Source: a phage. Taken from it: DNA of 64,000 nucleotides. Position numbers and translations under genes: made by a program. How positions within the stretch are numbered: position 1 is the first letter of the stretch; each line of letters begins with the position of its first letter. Below are positions 5,817 to 45,910 of the stretch, piece after piece. Below the pieces are notes generated by a model. The model worked only from the letters and a program-made list of their open reading frames with translations, was not told the origin of the DNA and did not search any database. Location: sequence record PX092659.1. The stretch is one strand, 5' to 3'.

Positions 5817-7279
5817 ATATCGCTGGCCTGTTCACCTGTTGAATTTTCAGCTTTGTCTTTCTTAGCACGTTTAGGTTGAGCCGGCTTATCCTTCTCAATA
5901 GGGATAACGAACTCAGCTTCCATTTGAGATATATCTTCCATTGCTAGGTTGGTAGTGTTATCCATTCGCAGAGTTTCCCAGTTCATTTTAGGCATAAACT
6001 TCACGCTATCAGAAGAACGAGTCTTAACGAAGTCAAACATAATAGCACCTTGACCATTATCAGCTTTTGCAGCATTAAGATTAGCAGCCATGTCTGCGGA
6101 ATCAAGAATCCCCTTTGACATACGTGTTCTACCATCCTGATCGATCTGGTAAGGAGCTACACCAGCCACGTTATGTTTCTGGCAGATAGATTTGAAAGAC
6201 GAGCTAACAACCATCTGTTCTTTCCAGTCATACATATCAATGGTTTTAGAATCTGGAAGTCGGGTTTGGTTAATATAGTCCAGTAAAGCTACTGTAACTT
6301 TATCACCATATCTAGCAACTAATTTATTTAACTCTACATCAACTGTTGTAATGGACAGTTCAGGGTCATAAACGATAATCATAGGAGTATGTAGTTCATA
6401 CCCCTCTATTAGTTTACTCTCCATATCGTAGAAATCACTCATCTTAGCCATTGTGTACTGTTTAACAAAGTTATCGAAAAGCTCTTCACCACCATTAAAC
6501 ATTCTAGCTCTAGTTCTGGCTAATCTCAACAGAGCTGCACCTTCTAGAGTATTATTACGCATTGCTAGTGCTGATACACCAGCTAACATGGCTAGATTAC
6601 GTCTAAATACTTCATGTTCTTTCATCTCAATTGAGAAGTATGGAGCAATATCTCCATTCAAATATTGCTGAACCTGTATGTTTGAACAGATAATGGATTT
6701 ACCAGTACCACGCCAACCACCAAGCAGTAACGTTTCTGTGCGAGCTAAACCAATTTGAGCGTCGAACTCATTACAAATACCAAGAGCGATTAAGTTCAGT
6801 TTGGTATCTTCTTCTCTCTGGAAAATACGCATGTTATCTGCGTTGAATACTTTTCCAGTATTCGTTACTTTCTCTTCTAATTTTAAGTGAAGGGAGGCAA
6901 CTCGGTTGAGAATTTCTCCCTGATCCAGCATTGTTAAATCTTGAAGCACGTCTGTTTCTAGAAGCTTCAGGAATAAATCCTGTGTATATTCGGCCTCTAG
7001 GACTTCAAGTGCCTGTTCCATGCTCACTTCTGGAATTTGAGTGTTAGCTAAGACGACTAGAGCTTGAGAAAGGCGGGCGTTCCTATTAGCTTCAAGCATA
7101 AGTGCGTCAATGGACGGCATTGTGTTATATTTTTTATAATAATTCTGGACGGCTTGGTAAATTGAGGAGAAAGCGTCATTAAAATGATCTTTATGCAGTT
7201 TTGAGAATGTTTCCAATGCTATTTGCTTCTGTTCGGAAGCTAGAAGCATCTTCAACACTACAGCTTGCACGTTAAACAT
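5813..7279 (-). CDS. P-loop NTPase, probable replicative helicase-like protein
   Basis: 488 aa; Walker A-like GGWRGTGKS; sits between primase and ligase genes; start ATGA-overlaps upstream HNH stop. Confidence 0.5.
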   Translation of the reverse strand: MFNVQAVVLKMLLASEQKQIALETFSKLHKDHFNDAFSSIYQAVQNYYKKYNTMPSIDALMLEANRNARLSQALVVLANTQIPEVSMEQALEVLEAEYTQDLFLKLLETDVLQDLTMLDQGEILNRVASLHLKLEEKVTNTGKVFNADNMRIFQREEDTKLNLIALGICNEFDAQIGLARTETLLLGGWRGTGKSIICSNIQVQQYLNGDIAPYFSIEMKEHEVFRRNLAMLAGVSALAMRNNTLEGAALLRLARTRARMFNGGEELFDNFVKQYTMAKMSDFYDMESKLIEGYELHTPMIIVYDPELSITTVDVELNKLVARYGDKVTVALLDYINQTRLPDSKTIDMYDWKEQMVVSSSFKSICQKHNVAGVAPYQIDQDGRTRMSKGILDSADMAANLNAAKADNGQGAIMFDFVKTRSSDSVKFMPKMNWETLRMDNTTNLAMEDISQMEAEFVIPIEKDKPAQPKRAKKDKAENSTGEQASDI

Positions 7280-35807: not shown

Positions 35808-36265
35808 TGGGTGAAAATATTCTAATGACCCTTCGTGGACTGCTTAGTCTAGCACGTACTCACGGTGATAAGGAACGGGCACTTAATCTTCAGACCATGA
35901 TTGGTGATCTGCAACGTATTGATAAAGACATTGTTACTCGAACCGAGTTCGTAGCCTATCTGAAAGCTCAGATTAAGGCTCTAGAAAATGCAAAACAACG
36001 CGCTATTAAAGTTGGTACGGAAGTTCCTACCGATGTAGACTATGAGCAACTGCTTTATTCCATGCTGCAAGAGTATCAGCCAAGTCAACTTACTGAAACT
36101 GAAATTCGTGAGTATTTTGCAGAACTGGTTAAATTAAACCCAGGTATTACCAAAGCTCTATTAATGAAAACCATTAAGGCAGAATTTCCTGGACGTTATG
36201 ACGGTAAAACAACTGCTTTGATTGCTAGTGAATTTTTTAAAAATTCATTTGCTAAATGCTTATAA
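35807..36265 (+). CDS. hypothetical protein
   Basis: 152-aa track ORF. Confidence 0.5.
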   Translation: MGENILMTLRGLLSLARTHGDKERALNLQTMIGDLQRIDKDIVTRTEFVAYLKAQIKALENAKQRAIKVGTEVPTDVDYEQLLYSMLQEYQPSQLTETEIREYFAELVKLNPGITKALLMKTIKAEFPGRYDGKTTALIASEFFKNSFAKCL

Positions 36266-36277: not shown

Positions 36278-37046
36278 ATATTCATAAATTAGGGAACAGC
36301 GAGCCGATTACGCTGAACTTGTCTTAATGTAAGATGCGTCGAGCACTAAGATTCGTTGAATAGAGTCGGTGGGTTAGTTGTAAAACTAGTACACAGGGGG
36401 CGGCAATCCCGGTTAGTGGCTAGAACGTGTAAAATGAGGCGTCTGAAACCTCTCCCCTAAACTCTTCTCTAATTTATAAATAGTGGGGTGTGGAAATCAC
36501 TTATGTAGTAGCACTGCCGTCCTAGTATAATTGGTATTATCAAGCCGTAACTGGTGGAAGATGTAGGTTCGAATCTTACGGTCGGTAAGAACTGGATAAC
36601 TGATGCTTTTAACGTAAAAGCTTCCGAGGTTAGTTGCGCACTGCCTAAACCACGCGGTAGTTGGTTCCAGGCTAACCAACCAGTCTGCTGAATAGTTTTA
36701 TTACGATTTAACTATGTCCAGACTAAAGAAGAACTTTAGAAGGTATTCTAGGATAGTGAAGTTCTTTCTCCATATCGGAGTAGTTTTTCAAGCTATCCAC
36801 AAAGTGGGAAATGCTGACATGAGAGATGTCACTAATGGTGCACAATAGCACAGGTAATTCGCGATAACTCCTGTTGAGTAGCAGCAAAAGGCGGGAAGTC
36901 ATGACCCCAAGCCTAACCGAGTCCTCAATATACCGCAGGACATAACCACTAAGTCACCCTGACTTAAACTGGAAAATAATAGACGTTACTGTATTTTGTC
37001 TTGAAATACTTAATGAGTGAGACTTATGACTCTCCCGGTATCGTCT

Positions 37047-43463: not shown

Positions 43464-43565
43464 AATTCTGTGTAGAGTTAAGTAAACCGGTAGCCAACCA
43501 GCTATCATTGCTGACATCGAATTCAGCCACAGATACCATTTTCATTAATAACTGAGGAAACAAGC

Positions 43566-44114: not shown

Positions 44115-44462
44115 ATGCGTAATGCTAAAGAAGAGCTGTTACTCGCCTTAAAAAATACCAATTCTAAAGTTAAGTGTATTAAAATAGAATTTGGGTATTA
44201 TGGGGACAAAAAAGTCTGGGTATTACCTTTAGGTTATACAGAAGAAGACATTGAGGGGTTTCTTAATAACCTAGACTTTGAATATGATTCTGGATACGGT
44301 GGACAATTACTTTATGGTAATGTATGGTTTGCCGATGGAACTTGGCTAGAACGTGGGGAATATGATGGTGCTGAGTGGTGGGAATACAAGGCTACACCAG
44401 CAATCCCAGAGGAATGCCGAACAATTAATGGTGAAGTAGATAATACTTTACGGTTAAACTAA
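44115..44462 (+). CDS. hypothetical protein
   Basis: 115-aa track ORF. Confidence 0.5.
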   Translation: MRNAKEELLLALKNTNSKVKCIKIEFGYYGDKKVWVLPLGYTEEDIEGFLNNLDFEYDSGYGGQLLYGNVWFADGTWLERGEYDGAEWWEYKATPAIPEECRTINGEVDNTLRLN

Positions 44463-44855
44463 TAAAATTTCAGTGCAGAACACGGAGCTAGCAATTCGGA
44501 AGTGCTGACTCATGATAAGCTGCCTATGTACTTGCAAAGCGGTCGTGTCCAAGACTCGGACTCTTGCACTGAAAACAATCAAACATTCTAGCGTGGTTGA
44601 TGGGGAAACCAGCTTGGCTAGGGCAGAAGCTCGTTCGATTCGAGTGAAAGAATGGTTCTCGTAAGTCCGCACAAGTGATAGCAGGTTCGAGTCCTGTCTA
44701 GAATGATACTATAAAGTTTACTTATTGAGTAGGTTCCGATAGATCGGCGGGTCTATTCTGGCAGTTAAGAGAGGTCTCGCAAACTTCTTTGTCAGCCGTG
44801 GGGTTGGTAGCCTCCAGGTGGCCTACACAATAAGTAAATTTATTAAAAATTCATT

Positions 44856-44884
44856 TGCTATTTCGCTTAATTCTCGGTATAATA
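44856..44884 (+). promoter_or_regulatory. sigma70-type early promoter: TTGCTA-N17-TATAAT
   Basis: Cassette match (coordinates here may be off by 1 nt). Confidence 0.55.
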
Positions 44885-44915
44885 TATCTTATAAAGTGTT
44901 GAGAAGGAAAGCAAA

Positions 44916-45113
44916 ATGAAAAAAGTTTTACTGCTGTCTGTATTCCTACTTACTGGTTGTTTTAAACTTGACTCAACCATTAATAAAGAGTATGAATTTG
45001 CTAAAAATTTCTGTGGCGGAGAGAGTAATATAAAGAATTTCTACATATATAGTACAATTCCTAGTACCGTTTATTGTGTAGACGGACGAATTATTAATAT
45101 TCCTCCACAATAA
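44916..45113 (+). CDS. small lipoprotein (signal peptide with lipobox LLTGC)
   Basis: 65 aa; MKKVLLLSVFLLTGC then mature Cys; AAGGAAAGC RBS. Confidence 0.55.
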   Translation: MKKVLLLSVFLLTGCFKLDSTINKEYEFAKNFCGGESNIKNFYIYSTIPSTVYCVDGRIINIPPQ

Positions 45114-45471: not shown

Positions 45472-45550
45472 AGATCGCTAGCTCAATAGGTTTAGTAGCA
45501 TCCGACTTTTAATCGGAAGGTTCTGGGTTCGAGTCCCAGGCGATCTACCA
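45472..45550 (+). tRNA. tRNA-Lys (anticodon TTT)
   Basis: Perfect acceptor AGATCGC/GCGATCT, anticodon stem TCCGA/TCGGA with loop CTTTTAA, T-arm CTGGG-TTCGAGT-CCCAG. Confidence 0.8.
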
Positions 45551-45568
45551 ATTTCAAGAAAAACGCAG

Positions 45569-45597
45569 TTGCTTAATGCGTAATTTCTTGTTACAAT
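45569..45597 (+). promoter_or_regulatory. sigma70-type early promoter: TTGCTT-N17-TACAAT
   Basis: Cassette variant; followed by about 235 nt of ORF-free leader before tRNA-Ala. Confidence 0.55.
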
Positions 45598-45835
45598 ATT
45601 TATATAAATTGATGAGGAGAAATCCTCGTCATAGTTCACTAAGGTATTAGCTCGACCTAGGACTGGCTGCCAAAAAGCACGATCCCTACGATTCGGGAGA
45701 AGTTCTAGATTAGTCCACTAGATTCAGCGGCAACTGAATAGTGTATCGGGTTTGCGAGATGACGCGGTTCCTTCCGCTCGAAGCGAAGGTGCTGTAGTTA
45801 CGCCGAGCTAATAGCCTTAGTAAACTAAAGAATTT

Positions 45836-45910
45836 GGGCGAATAGTGTCAGCGGGAGCACACCAGACTTGCAATCTGGTAGGGAGGGTTCGAGTCCCTCT
45901 TTGTCCACCA
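45836..45910 (+). tRNA. tRNA-Ala (anticodon TGC)
   Basis: Acceptor GGGCGAA/TTTGTCC with G3-U70 wobble (Ala identity pair), anticodon stem CCAGA/TCTGG with loop CTTGCAA, T-arm GAGGG-TTCGAGT-CCCTC. Confidence 0.8.

What the first reader, a model, noticed from the sequence alone, without database searches (positions are those of the whole stretch)
44463..44855. tRNA-like relics in a 390-nt ORF-free spacer
The segment contains two T-arm-like hairpins (GCTCG-TTCGATT-CGAGT near 44629-44647; GCAGG-TTCGAGT-CCTGT near 44682-44698) and a 7-nt acceptor-like complement CATTCTA (about 44585-44591) / TAGAATG (about 44699-44705) spanning roughly 120 nt, too long for a normal tRNA. This suggests a disrupted or insertion-containing tRNA gene or a tRNA-derived ncRNA.
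Basis: seen in the sequence. Interest (0 to 1): 0.4.

Follow-up and report, generated by a model that had tools for sequence, protein, structure and literature searches.

The report
Phage T5 tRNA-shaped stable RNA2
The flagged spacer carries two small stable RNA genes already catalogued in phage T5 (tRNA-shaped RNA2, and RNA IV); RNA2 is not a broken tRNA but a conserved tRNA look-alike whose anticodon loop is replaced by a conserved ~55-base module, it occurs in many unrelated phages, and its function is still unknown.

Summary
Both T-arm hairpins and the acceptor-like complement are present, within 1 nt of the stated positions. The window is a T5-like phage (Tequintavirus) tRNA cluster. The spacer matches features already annotated in T5 and BF23:
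- rna2, "tRNA-like stable RNA with unknown functions" = window 44584-44708
- rnaIV = 44727-44829
- promoter P13a = 44855-44883

An unannotated 5' segment (44468-44574) precedes them.

RNA2 is not a relic. A covariance model built only from non-T5 relatives scores it 95.5 bits (E~1e-21). Across 52 distinct homologues, 92% of modelled pairs form and 27 of 33 pairs show compensatory changes. Homologues come from T5-like, Klebsiella, Pectobacterium, T4-like Acinetobacter and 155-570 kb metagenomic phage contigs.

The architecture is a tRNA body: an 8-bp acceptor stem, D-arm, 4-bp anticodon stem, 5-nt variable loop and T-arm. The anticodon loop is replaced by a three-way junction holding a second canonical T-arm, an AUGGU hairpin and the near-invariant string CGUAA-N-UCCGCA.

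The insert is the conserved part: 27 of 55 columns are at least 90% conserved, against 1 of 51 in the body outside its T-arm. The family appears phage-restricted, always sits in tRNA arrays, and has no Rfam family.

The object is already known. Its function, and the breadth of the family, are the open points.

The parts
44584..44708 (+). RNA2 gene: tRNA-shaped stable RNA, orthologue of T5 rna2/T5s06 and BF23 rna2
   Evidence: 96.7% identical to T5 rna2 over 123 nt. Mapped onto the T5 and BF23 annotations through alignment A1. Scores 95.5 bits, E~1e-21 with model R1, which holds no Tequintavirus or Epseptimavirus sequence.
44584..44591 (+). Acceptor stem 5' strand, CAUUCUAG. It pairs with 44698-44705 (CUAGAAUG), giving 8 bp including a -1:73 pair; A44706 follows.
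   Evidence: All 8 pairs form in the window. All 8 pairs show compensatory changes in the family.
44594..44611 (+). D-arm: UGGUU / GAUGGGGA / AACCA
   Evidence: All 4 modelled D-stem pairs covary and 97% of cells are paired.
44613..44616 (+). Anticodon-stem 5' strand CUUG, pairing with CAAG 44672-44675. The 5-nt variable loop UGAUA follows at 44676-44680.
   Evidence: All 4 pairs covary and 95% of cells are paired. The Rfam tRNA model places the insert of relatives inside the anticodon loop.
44617..44671 (+). Conserved insert replacing the anticodon loop. Order along the strand: flank GCUA; Pa GGGC 44621-44624 with GUCC 44665-44668; A44625 opposite GUAA 44661-44664; Pb G44626-C44660 and A44627-U44659; hairpin 1; hairpin 2; flank GCA 44669-44671.
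   Evidence: 27 of 55 columns are at least 90% conserved, against 1 of 51 in the body outside its T-arm. The Pa pair N:N covaries (UA 26, CG 9). The Pb pair covaries (GC 11, AU 10, UA 6).
44630..44644 (+). Hairpin 1, a second T-arm: CUCG / UUCGAUU / CGAG. It has an invariant G:C closing pair and a U-U-C-R-A loop.
Evidence: 100% of cells are paired and 3 of 4 pairs covary with 4-5 pair types each.
44650..44658 (+). Hairpin 2: G44650-C44658 and A44651-U44657 close the loop AUGGU (44652-44656), which has a near-invariant GG.
   Evidence: Found by mutual information on A6. The inner pair is AU 19, UA 17, CG 3, with 42 of 51 cells paired; the outer pair is weaker at 32 of 50.
44681..44697 (+). Canonical T-arm of the tRNA body: GCAGG / UUCGAGU / CCUGU
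Evidence: 97% of cells are paired and 4 of 5 pairs covary.
44727..44829 (+). RNA IV gene, orthologue of T5 rnaIV/T5s05 ('stable RNA with unknown functions'): a four-way junction
   Evidence: 97% identical to T5 rnaIV. RNAalifold on 10 sequences finds 49 pairs, 10 of them with compensatory changes.
44714..44841 (+). Invariant 13-bp A/U-rich outer stem (44714-44726 with 44829-44841) enclosing RNA IV. Probably a processing stem removed to give the annotated 103-nt RNA (inferred).
   Evidence: All 13 pairs are identical in the 10 sequences, apart from one C:A cell. With the stem the fold reaches -49.7 kcal/mol, z = -5.15; without it, z = -1.15. The annotated RNA IV ends lie just inside the stem.
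44855..44883 (+). Sigma-70-type promoter (T5/BF23 P13a): TTGCTA, 17 nt, TATAAT. It drives the downstream small ORF and tRNA-Pro/tRNA-fMet.
   Evidence: 10 of 12 consensus match. Annotated as promoter P13a in T5 and BF23 and as T5P17 in AY587007.
44468..44574 (+). Unannotated 'module A': a predicted multi-branch fold closed by UCAGUGCAGA / UCUUGCACUGA. Status uncertain.
   Evidence: The MFE fold shows a closed stem, but z = -1.33. It is 97-99% identical in Tequintavirus only, so covariation cannot be tested. It is absent where RNA2 follows tRNA-Lys(CUU) directly. Not annotated in T5 or BF23.

Best explanation
The segment is the gene for phage T5 'RNA2', a stable non-coding RNA of about 125 nt. 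It uses a tRNA body as a chassis and carries a conserved RNA module where the anticodon loop should be.

Shown:
- It is orthologous to the annotated T5 and BF23 rna2.
- It folds as an 8-bp acceptor stem, D-arm, 4-bp anticodon stem, 5-nt variable loop and T-arm.
- The anticodon loop is replaced by a roughly 55-nt three-way junction. This comprises helix Pa (GGGN:NUCC), a 1x4 internal loop (A opposite GUAA), helix Pb, a second canonical T-arm (UUCGAUU) and a small hairpin with an AUGGU loop.
- The insert, not the body, holds the invariant nucleotides.
- The family is found in phage or phage-like contigs and always sits in same-strand tRNA arrays, often 2-9 nt from a tRNA.

Inferred:
- It is transcribed with the early tRNA operon.
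- Its ends are cut by the tRNA machinery (RNase P and 3' trimming or CCA addition) because of its acceptor/T/D body.
- The tRNA fold makes it stable.
- With no anticodon loop it cannot decode.
- The insert is the effector. Because its nucleotides are invariant in phages of very different hosts, it probably binds a universally conserved partner of tRNAs, such as a tRNA-processing or modifying enzyme, the ribosome, a tRNA-targeting nuclease, or the CCA end or elbow of another tRNA.

My preferred reading is that the inner T-loop and the GG of the AUGGU loop form a second tRNA-like 'elbow' at the tip of a lengthened anticodon arm. The RNA would then act as a tRNA mimic or decoy.

Likelihoods:
- Identity as RNA2: about 0.97
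- Functional structured RNA: about 0.95
- Chassis-plus-effector logic: about 0.6
- Second elbow: about 0.35
- Decoy or inhibitor role specifically: about 0.2
For: - Identity: 96-98% DNA identity to T5-like phages. The T5 and BF23 records annotate rna2, rnaIV and P13a at the aligned positions.
- Family membership: model R1, with no Tequintavirus or Epseptimavirus sequence, gives 95.5 bits, E~1e-21 for window 44584-44706.
- Fold, 35 sequences: 94.8% of cells paired, against 64% after shuffling and 30-50% after sliding; 24 of 29 pairs compensatory.
- Fold, 52 distinct sequences with the extended structure: 92.4% paired against 59% and 33-49%; covariation score 0.773 against 0.17.
- The 17 highest mutual-information column pairs all belong to the proposed structure, as do 19 of the top 20. 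The two extra helices were found this way.
- tRNA body: the Rfam tRNA model passes its threshold full-length on three relatives, with a 58-nt insert in the anticodon loop. Scores: L041 51.9, L018 44.8, L042 40.9 bits.
- Insert as the conserved part: mean 1.22 bits per column and 27 of 55 columns at least 90% conserved, against 0.39 bits and 1 of 51 for the body outside its T-arm.
- Context: in 24 loci every ARAGORN tRNA is on the same strand as the element, and 11 loci have a tRNA within 10 nt.
- Phage restriction: only 2 of 32 motif hits in 185,579 species genomes look genuine by eye, and both score as full-length members with R1 (L052 111.2 bits, L081 77.1 bits). Both are MAG contigs carrying tRNA arrays.
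Against: - No experiment on function was found in the searchable literature.
- That the RNA is expressed and stable rests only on the wording of the GenBank records.
- The window copy gets no Rfam tRNA hit even at E<=10.
- Single-sequence folding is not better than shuffles (z = -0.87), and the MFE fold misses hairpin 1.
- The inner-elbow idea rests on invariant nucleotides (UUCGAUU, GG), which covariation cannot test.
- The outer pair of hairpin 2 forms in only 64% of sequences.
- CCA is not encoded in the T5-type copies (AUA or ACA follows the stem), so 3' maturation is unverified.
- No protein partner emerges from gene neighbourhoods.
- Alignments A4 and A6 were fitted to the model, which favours the modelled pairs, although the slid controls argue against an artefact.
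Confidence: 0.6

Rival explanations
1. A decayed or disrupted tRNA gene (pseudogene or relic) broken by an insertion, with no function of its own.
For: ARAGORN and Rfam do not call a tRNA in the window copy. The element is tRNA-like and too long. Its T-arm is identical over 18 nt to that of the phage's own tRNA-Arg, which fits a tRNA origin.
Against: The insert is the best-conserved part. All helices keep pairing through compensatory changes across Demerecviridae, T4-like Acinetobacter phages and metagenomic phage contigs of 155-570 kb. The T5 and BF23 records list it as a stable RNA.
Confidence: 0.02
2. An intron-containing tRNA gene: the roughly 55-nt insert is spliced out to give a working tRNA.
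For: The Rfam tRNA model aligns three relatives full-length with the extra 58 nt exactly in the anticodon loop. Bacterial and phage tRNA introns do sit in anticodon loops (general knowledge).
Against: - No anticodon-loop signature flanks the insert. The 5' flank varies from 2 to 4 nt and has no conserved U33. The 3' flank is always GCA, so splicing would not leave a standard 7-nt loop.
- 55 nt is far below group I or II intron size, and no ribozyme family hits.
- It is not an archaeal bulge-helix-bulge: the UAA of the GUAA loop (44662-44664) and the GCA flank, the two 3-nt unpaired stretches that flank helix Pa, lie on the same strand.
- The T5 record gives the full 125 nt as the mature stable RNA.
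- The insert sequence is more constrained than any exon part.
Confidence: 0.05
3. A cis-acting processing or transcription element of the polycistronic tRNA transcript, for example an RNase P/E/III entry site or a terminator-like block, rather than a trans-acting RNA.
For: It always lies inside tRNA arrays, often 2-9 nt from a tRNA. The neighbouring RNA IV sits in a long invariant stem that looks like a processing signal.
Against: A processing signal does not need 27 near-invariant nucleotides in a three-way junction, nor a complete tRNA body. The neighbouring genes differ between lineages while the element stays the same. It is annotated as a stable product. No terminator-like site is present.
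Confidence: 0.08
4. A bacterial Y-RNA-like (YrlA-type) tRNA mimic that tethers a Ro60/Rsr-type protein.
For: YrlA RNAs also contain T- and D-arm mimics, are modified by tRNA enzymes, and occur in some phages (PMC4201824).
Against: No Rfam Y-RNA hit. The GNCGAA(N)G Rsr-binding motif is absent. The topology is opposite: here the RNA ends are in the acceptor stem, whereas in YrlA they are in the Ro-binding stem. YrlA genes lie within 4 kb of rsr, and no recurrent neighbouring protein was found here.
Confidence: 0.02

Closest known systems
Phage T5 rna2 (T5s06) and BF23 rna2: 'tRNA-like stable RNA with unknown functions' (GenBank NC_005859, AY692264, NC_042564)
   Same: Same gene: 96.7% identity over 123 nt. 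Same neighbours (ORF T5.067 homologue upstream; rnaIV, P13a and tRNA-Pro downstream).
   Different: Only point substitutions. BF23 and Epseptimavirus-type phages carry an extra tRNA-Gly(GCC) plus about 110 nt between RNA2 and RNA IV, and the latter lack module A.
Canonical tRNA (Rfam RF00005)
   Same: Acceptor stem, D-arm with GG, anticodon stem, 5-nt variable loop, and a T-arm with G53:C61 and UUCRA. It lies in tRNA arrays. Three relatives pass the Rfam tRNA threshold.
   Different: There is no 7-nt anticodon loop, no anticodon and no U33. A 55-nt conserved three-way junction takes its place. The acceptor stem is 8 bp through a -1:73 pair. The window copy is not detected by Rfam or ARAGORN.
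Phage T4 species 1 and species 2 RNAs (rnaC, rnaD)
   Same: Stable small RNAs of 119-139 nt with unknown function, encoded at the end of a phage tRNA cluster. rnaC ends in a T-arm-like hairpin.
   Different: By eye there is no sequence similarity to the RNA2 insert: the GGGNNG...GUUCGAUUC...CGUAANUCCGCA signature is absent. This is an analogy of context, not homology. The T4 locus was not searched with model R1.
Bacterial Y RNA YrlA (tRNA-mimicking ncRNA bound by Ro60/Rsr)
   Same: A non-coding RNA that copies the T- and D-arms of tRNA and is handled by tRNA enzymes (PMC4201824).
   Different: Permuted topology, an Rsr-binding motif, and linkage to the rsr gene. None of these is present here.
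Engineered 'tRNA scaffold' for recombinant RNA expression (Ponchon & Dardel; recalled from memory, with a follow-up paper, PMC3753655, listed)
   Same: Same design logic: a foreign structured RNA replaces the anticodon stem-loop, so that the tRNA body gives correct processing and stability in E. coli.
   Different: That is a laboratory construct. Here the arrangement is natural, conserved, and of unknown cargo function.

Membership tests
T5 rna2 orthologue group | Sequence homology to the annotated T5/BF23 rna2 | tested here: met
   96.7% identity over 123 of 125 nt to T5 rna2. Alignment A1.
T5 rna2 orthologue group | Same position in the tRNA cluster: after tRNA-Asp/tRNA-Lys(CUU), before rnaIV, P13a and tRNA-Pro | tested here: met
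T5 rna2 orthologue group | Accumulates as a stable RNA of about 125 nt in infected cells | not testable with these tools
   Only the wording of the GenBank records supports this. No paper was found.
Wider RNA2-like phage family (defined here, model R1) | Full-length match to a covariance model built without Tequintavirus or Epseptimavirus sequences | tested here: met
   95.5 bits, E~1e-21, model positions 1-123.
Wider RNA2-like phage family (defined here, model R1) | Signature GGGNNG ... GUUCGAUUC ... UGG ... CGUAANUCCGCA inside the anticodon stem | tested here: met
   Window: GGGCAG, GUUCGAUUC, UGG, CGUAAGUCCGCA.
tRNA (Rfam RF00005) | Score at or above the gathering threshold (29 bits), or an ARAGORN call | tested here: not met
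   No hit at E<=10 on 44350-44950 and no ARAGORN call. Three relatives do pass.
tRNA (Rfam RF00005) | Acceptor, D and T arms with conserved G18G19, G53:C61 and U54-U55-C56 | tested here: met
tRNA (Rfam RF00005) | 7-nt anticodon loop with U33 and an anticodon | tested here: not met
   55 nt lie between the strands of the anticodon stem. The flanks are variable (5') or GCA (3').
Intron-containing tRNA | A recognisable intron class (group I/II ribozyme core, or bulge-helix-bulge) and exon ends that rebuild an anticodon loop | tested here: not met
   No ribozyme family hit. The UAA and GCA unpaired stretches flanking helix Pa are on one strand. No conserved loop residues.
tmRNA | tRNA-like domain plus a tag reading frame, detectable by ARAGORN or Rfam | tested here: not met
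   ARAGORN found no tmRNA and Rfam found none. The spacing between AUGGU and CGUAA varies out of frame.
YrlA / bacterial Y RNA | Rsr-binding stem with GNCGAA(N)G formed by the RNA ends | tested here: not met
   The motif is absent and the ends lie in the acceptor stem. No Rfam hit.
YrlA / bacterial Y RNA | Encoded within about 4 kb of a Ro60 (TROVE) gene | not tested
   No TROVE search of the window was run. Neighbour clustering found no recurrent protein.

The most novel reading that the evidence does not exclude
T5 RNA2 is the founding member of a widespread, phage-restricted and so far uncurated RNA family: a natural 'tRNA scaffold'. In it the anticodon loop is replaced by a conserved three-way junction carrying a second T-loop and a UGG(U) loop. 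The module would form either a second tRNA elbow or a T-box/RNase-P-like pocket for NCCA ends. It would target a universal component of the host tRNA or translation machinery, for example as a decoy against tRNA-directed immunity or as a regulator of tRNA processing.
Probability: 0.35. Interest if true: 0.7.

Novelty: already known. Interest (0 to 1): 0.42.

Why it matters
For the scan, this settles the flag. The spacer is not junk and not a dead tRNA. It holds two catalogued T5 stable RNA genes and a promoter, which standard tRNA and Rfam tools miss.

Beyond that, RNA2 has been annotated 'function unknown' in the public T5 and BF23 records. Three observations turn it into a well-defined experimental target in a model phage:
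- It has homologues in T4-like Acinetobacter phages and in metagenomic phage contigs of 155-570 kb.
- Its fold has strong covariation support.
- Its conserved part is the module that replaces the anticodon loop.

Phage tRNA clusters are currently being reinterpreted as counter-defence arsenals (T5 tRNAs against PARIS and retron Eco7; PMC11464382, PMC10644984). A conserved non-decoding tRNA mimic in the same arrays is a natural candidate for a related role.

Tried and rejected
- Rfam at permissive thresholds on the window copy and on relatives gave only tRNA hits on three relatives. No ribozyme, riboswitch, Y-RNA, T-box or tmRNA family matched.
- Single-sequence MFE folding is not significant for RNA2 (z = -0.87) and mispairs the insert. 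I dropped it in favour of covariation.
- RNAalifold on plain MAFFT alignments recovered only three hairpins, because the stems were misaligned. A covariance model solved this.
- A looser motif scan of viral contigs returned mostly chance matches. Only L090 and L093 among the new loci were real.
- The motif scan of 185,579 species genomes gave 30 chance matches out of 32, mostly in GC-rich sequence lacking the second T-arm.
- By eye, T4 rnaC and rnaD show no homology to the RNA2 insert. The T4 locus was not searched with model R1.
- Neighbour-protein clustering found no universal partner. A YqeY-like protein sits next to the RNA in only two lineages, and 8 kb away in T5-likes.
- K-turn, bulge-helix-bulge, 5S loop E and 16S helix 45 resemblances were considered by eye and rejected as not fitting the consensus or strand topology.
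- Six literature searches found no functional study of T5 RNA2 or RNA IV.
- Module A could not be assessed: too little variation, a non-significant fold, and no paralogue in the window.

Full report
**What the window is.** ARAGORN finds 24 tRNA genes, all on the + strand, between 37.0 and 49.2 kb. Rfam agrees. The 1.1 kb around the finding is 94-98% identical to more than 80 T5-like phages (Tequintavirus and relatives, Demerecviridae). The window is therefore the early tRNA region of a T5-like phage.

**Checking the observation.**
- Hairpin 1: CTCG 44630-33 / TTCGATT 44634-40 / CGAG 44641-44.
- Hairpin 2: GCAGG 44681-85 / TTCGAGT 44686-92 / CCTGT 44693-97.
- Terminal complement: 8 bp rather than 7, CATTCTAG 44584-91 with CTAGAATG 44698-705.

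Coordinates were off by at most 1-2 nt. ARAGORN and Rfam report nothing here, even at E<=10.

**What is annotated at this place in relatives.** Three curated records were checked: T5 reference NC_005859, T5 st0 AY692264, and the BF23 tRNA region NC_042564. At the aligned positions they annotate:
- rna2 (T5s06), 'tRNA-like stable RNA with unknown functions', 125 nt
- rnaIV (T5s05), 'stable RNA with unknown functions', 103 nt
- promoter P13a

Alignment A1 and BLAST map these features to the window:

| Feature | Window coordinates | Identity to T5 |
|---|---|---|
| RNA2 | 44584-44708 | 96.7% |
| RNA IV | 44727-44829 | 97% |
| P13a hexamers | 44855-44883 | 10 of 12 consensus match |

Most other T5-like records annotate nothing here. 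The first 105-120 nt of the spacer ('module A', about 44468-44574) is not annotated anywhere.

**RNA2 belongs to a wide family.**
- Sensitive BLAST showed the RNA2 part alone in a Pectobacterium phage (Hongcheonvirus), in Klebsiella Sugarlandviruses, and, over 63 nt, in the T4-like Acinetobacter phage 133. There it lies between tRNA-Gly and tRNA-Cys.
- A motif from the shared core (TTCGATTC-N12-32-CGTAANTCCGCA) hit 42 IMG/VR loci, including contigs of 155-363 kb.
- It also hit 65 metagenome contigs, up to 570 kb.
- In one genome from each of 185,579 bacterial and archaeal species it gave only 2 plausible hits out of 32. Both are MAG contigs with tRNA arrays, and both score as full-length members with R1.
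- I built covariance model R1 from 13 members that include no Tequintavirus or Epseptimavirus sequence. It finds window 44584-44706 full-length at 95.5 bits, E~1e-21.
- In total it finds 72 matches, 52 of them distinct, with Neff about 39.

**Structure.**
- On the 35-sequence alignment, 94.8% of cells form standard pairs. Shuffling gives 64% and sliding partners by 1-3 columns gives 30-50%. 24 of 29 pairs show compensatory changes.
- Mutual information with APC correction on the 52-sequence alignment ranks modelled pairs in all 17 top places, and 19 of the top 20. It also reveals two further helices.
- The extended structure gives 92.4% paired, against 59% shuffled and 33-49% slid. The covariation score is 0.773 against 0.17.
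- In window coordinates:

| Element | Window coordinates |
|---|---|
| Acceptor stem | 44584-91 with 44698-705 |
| D-arm | 44594-611 |
| Anticodon stem | 44613-16 with 44672-75 |
| Variable loop | 44676-80 |
| T-arm | 44681-97 |

- The 55 nt between the anticodon-stem strands form the following:

| Element | Window coordinates |
|---|---|
| Pa (GGGC:GUCC) | 44621-24 with 44665-68 |
| 1x4 loop (A opposite GUAA) | A44625 opposite 44661-64 |
| Pb | G44626-C44660, A44627-U44659 |
| Hairpin 1, a canonical T-arm | 44630-44 |
| Hairpin 2, AUGGU loop | 44650-58 |
| Flank GCA | 44669-71 |

- The body is tRNA-like enough that Rfam's tRNA model passes threshold on three relatives, with 58 extra nt placed in the anticodon loop.
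- The -1:73 pair that makes the acceptor 8 bp forms in 38 of 51 sequences.

**Which part is constrained.** With sequence weighting, the insert has 27 of 55 columns at least 90% conserved (1.22 bits per column). The body outside its T-arm has 1 of 51 (0.39 bits). The body keeps its shape but not its sequence. In some lineages it looks like an ordinary local tRNA, for example a UAGCUCAGUUGGUAGAGC D-arm. The insert keeps its sequence. This pattern is expected if the tRNA body serves for maturation and stability and the insert is the working part. That is the same logic as the engineered 'tRNA scaffold' (my knowledge).

**Context.** In 24 representative loci every predicted tRNA lies on the same strand as the element, and 11 loci have a tRNA within 10 nt. 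ARAGORN never calls the element itself. In Epseptimavirus-type phages RNA2 follows tRNA-Lys(CUU) by 6 nt and is followed by tRNA-Gly(GCC) after 8 nt. No neighbouring protein recurs across lineages. A YqeY-like (tRNA-binding-domain) protein is adjacent in two lineages only.

**Mechanism.**
- Shown: orthology, fold, conservation pattern, array context and apparent phage restriction.
- Inferred: co-transcription with tRNAs, RNase P and 3' end maturation, stability, and inability to decode.
- Hypothesis A: the inner T-loop docks on the GG of the AUGGU loop, as T- and D-loops do in tRNA. This would create a second elbow on a lengthened anticodon arm.
- Hypothesis B: UGGU pairs with ACCA ends, as in T-box and RNase P RNAs.
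- Neither hypothesis can be tested by covariation, because the nucleotides involved are invariant.
- A role as a mimic or decoy towards a universal tRNA-binding factor is my best guess (about 0.2). It is prompted by recent evidence that T5 tRNAs counter tRNA-targeting defences (PMC11464382, listed; PMC10644984; PMC13096335).

**Rivals.**
- Pseudogene: contradicted by conservation and covariation.
- Spliced intron: no intron class, no anticodon-loop residues, a variable 5' flank, and the full-length RNA annotated as the stable product.
- Pure processing signal: too elaborate and too constant across different neighbourhoods.
- Y RNA: wrong topology, no Rsr motif.

**RNA IV and the rest of the spacer.**
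- RNA IV folds as a four-way junction: stem GUAGG/CCUAC and three arms, one ending in the invariant 7-nt loop CUCGCAA. 10 of 49 pairs are compensatory between Tequinta- and Epseptimavirus copies.
- It is enclosed by an invariant 13-bp A/U-rich stem (44714-26 with 44829-41). This stem accounts for the significant folding energy: z = -5.15 with it and -1.15 without it.
- The annotated mature ends lie just inside this stem, which suggests it is removed. RNase III is a candidate (inference).
- RNA2 and RNA IV can occur without each other (H77 and H78 match only query 1-244; H82 matches only 251-381).
- Module A remains unresolved.

**Verdict.** The object is already known as T5 RNA2 (plus RNA IV), so novelty for the scan is low. 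The added value is the demonstration that RNA2 is a member of a broad, apparently phage-restricted, structurally well-supported family with no Rfam entry and no known function.

Noticed in passing
window 44468-44574: An unannotated, highly conserved (97-99%) segment between ORF 44115-44462 and RNA2. It is predicted to fold as a multi-branch structure closed by an 11-bp stem. It occurs only in Tequintavirus and, together with the upstream ORF, is absent from Epseptimavirus-type phages. It could be another small RNA or a 3' UTR element.
   Followed up: partly
window 43466-43538 and 45645-45816: Exact or near-exact copies of two further T5 'stable RNAs of unknown function': RNA3 ('putative tRNA-like RNA', 100% identical) and RNA2H (172 nt, 98.3%). 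Neither is detected by ARAGORN or Rfam.
   Followed up: partly
window 45550-45836: The tRNA-Val(UAC) that follows tRNA-Lys(UUU) in T5 and BF23 is missing from this phage: no BLAST hit, and the gap is about 88 nt shorter. No tRNA-Gly is called in the window either.
   Followed up: partly
window 36516-36587: Weak Rfam tRNA hit (30.7 bits, just above threshold) that ARAGORN does not call.
   Followed up: no
window 36062-36262; L041 10551-10997; L093 3068-3505: A truncated YqeY-like ORF (67 aa, Pfam PF09424, E = 9e-4, below the cut-off) lies at the start of the T5-type tRNA region. Full-length YqeY-like proteins (146-149 aa, E = 3e-18) lie 200-470 nt upstream of the RNA2-like gene in two unrelated metagenomic phage lineages.
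   Followed up: partly
L039 652-1136 (- strand): A GOLLD RNA (Rfam RF02032, 176 bits) lies in the same 86-kb phage contig and the same tRNA array as an RNA2-like gene (7106-7226).
   Followed up: no
L002 1753-1973; L028 4023-4205: BF23 and Epseptimavirus-type phages carry tRNA-Gly(GCC) plus about 110-145 nt of unannotated sequence inserted between RNA2 and RNA IV.
   Followed up: no
L019 1120-1204; L090 6969-7085: A tRNA-Sec-model hit (48.7 bits, threshold 47) lies in a T5-like isolate's tRNA array. In Pectobacterium phage DU_PP_V, a second over-long (117 nt) weak match to model R1 (29.6 bits) may be another tRNA with an insert.
   Followed up: no
L006 1464-1568 (Acinetobacter phage 133); L081; L012: In some T4-like and metagenomic copies only about 105 nt are available between the flanking tRNAs, and the 5' acceptor/D-arm part is reduced or overlaps the neighbouring tRNA. 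This suggests minimised variants that keep the insert and the T-arm.
   Followed up: no
window 44916-45113: The small ORF after P13a (65 aa, with a lipoprotein-like N-terminus MKKVLLLSVFLLTGC) is named 'Rz-like spanin' in some RefSeq records but has no Pfam hit.
   Followed up: partly
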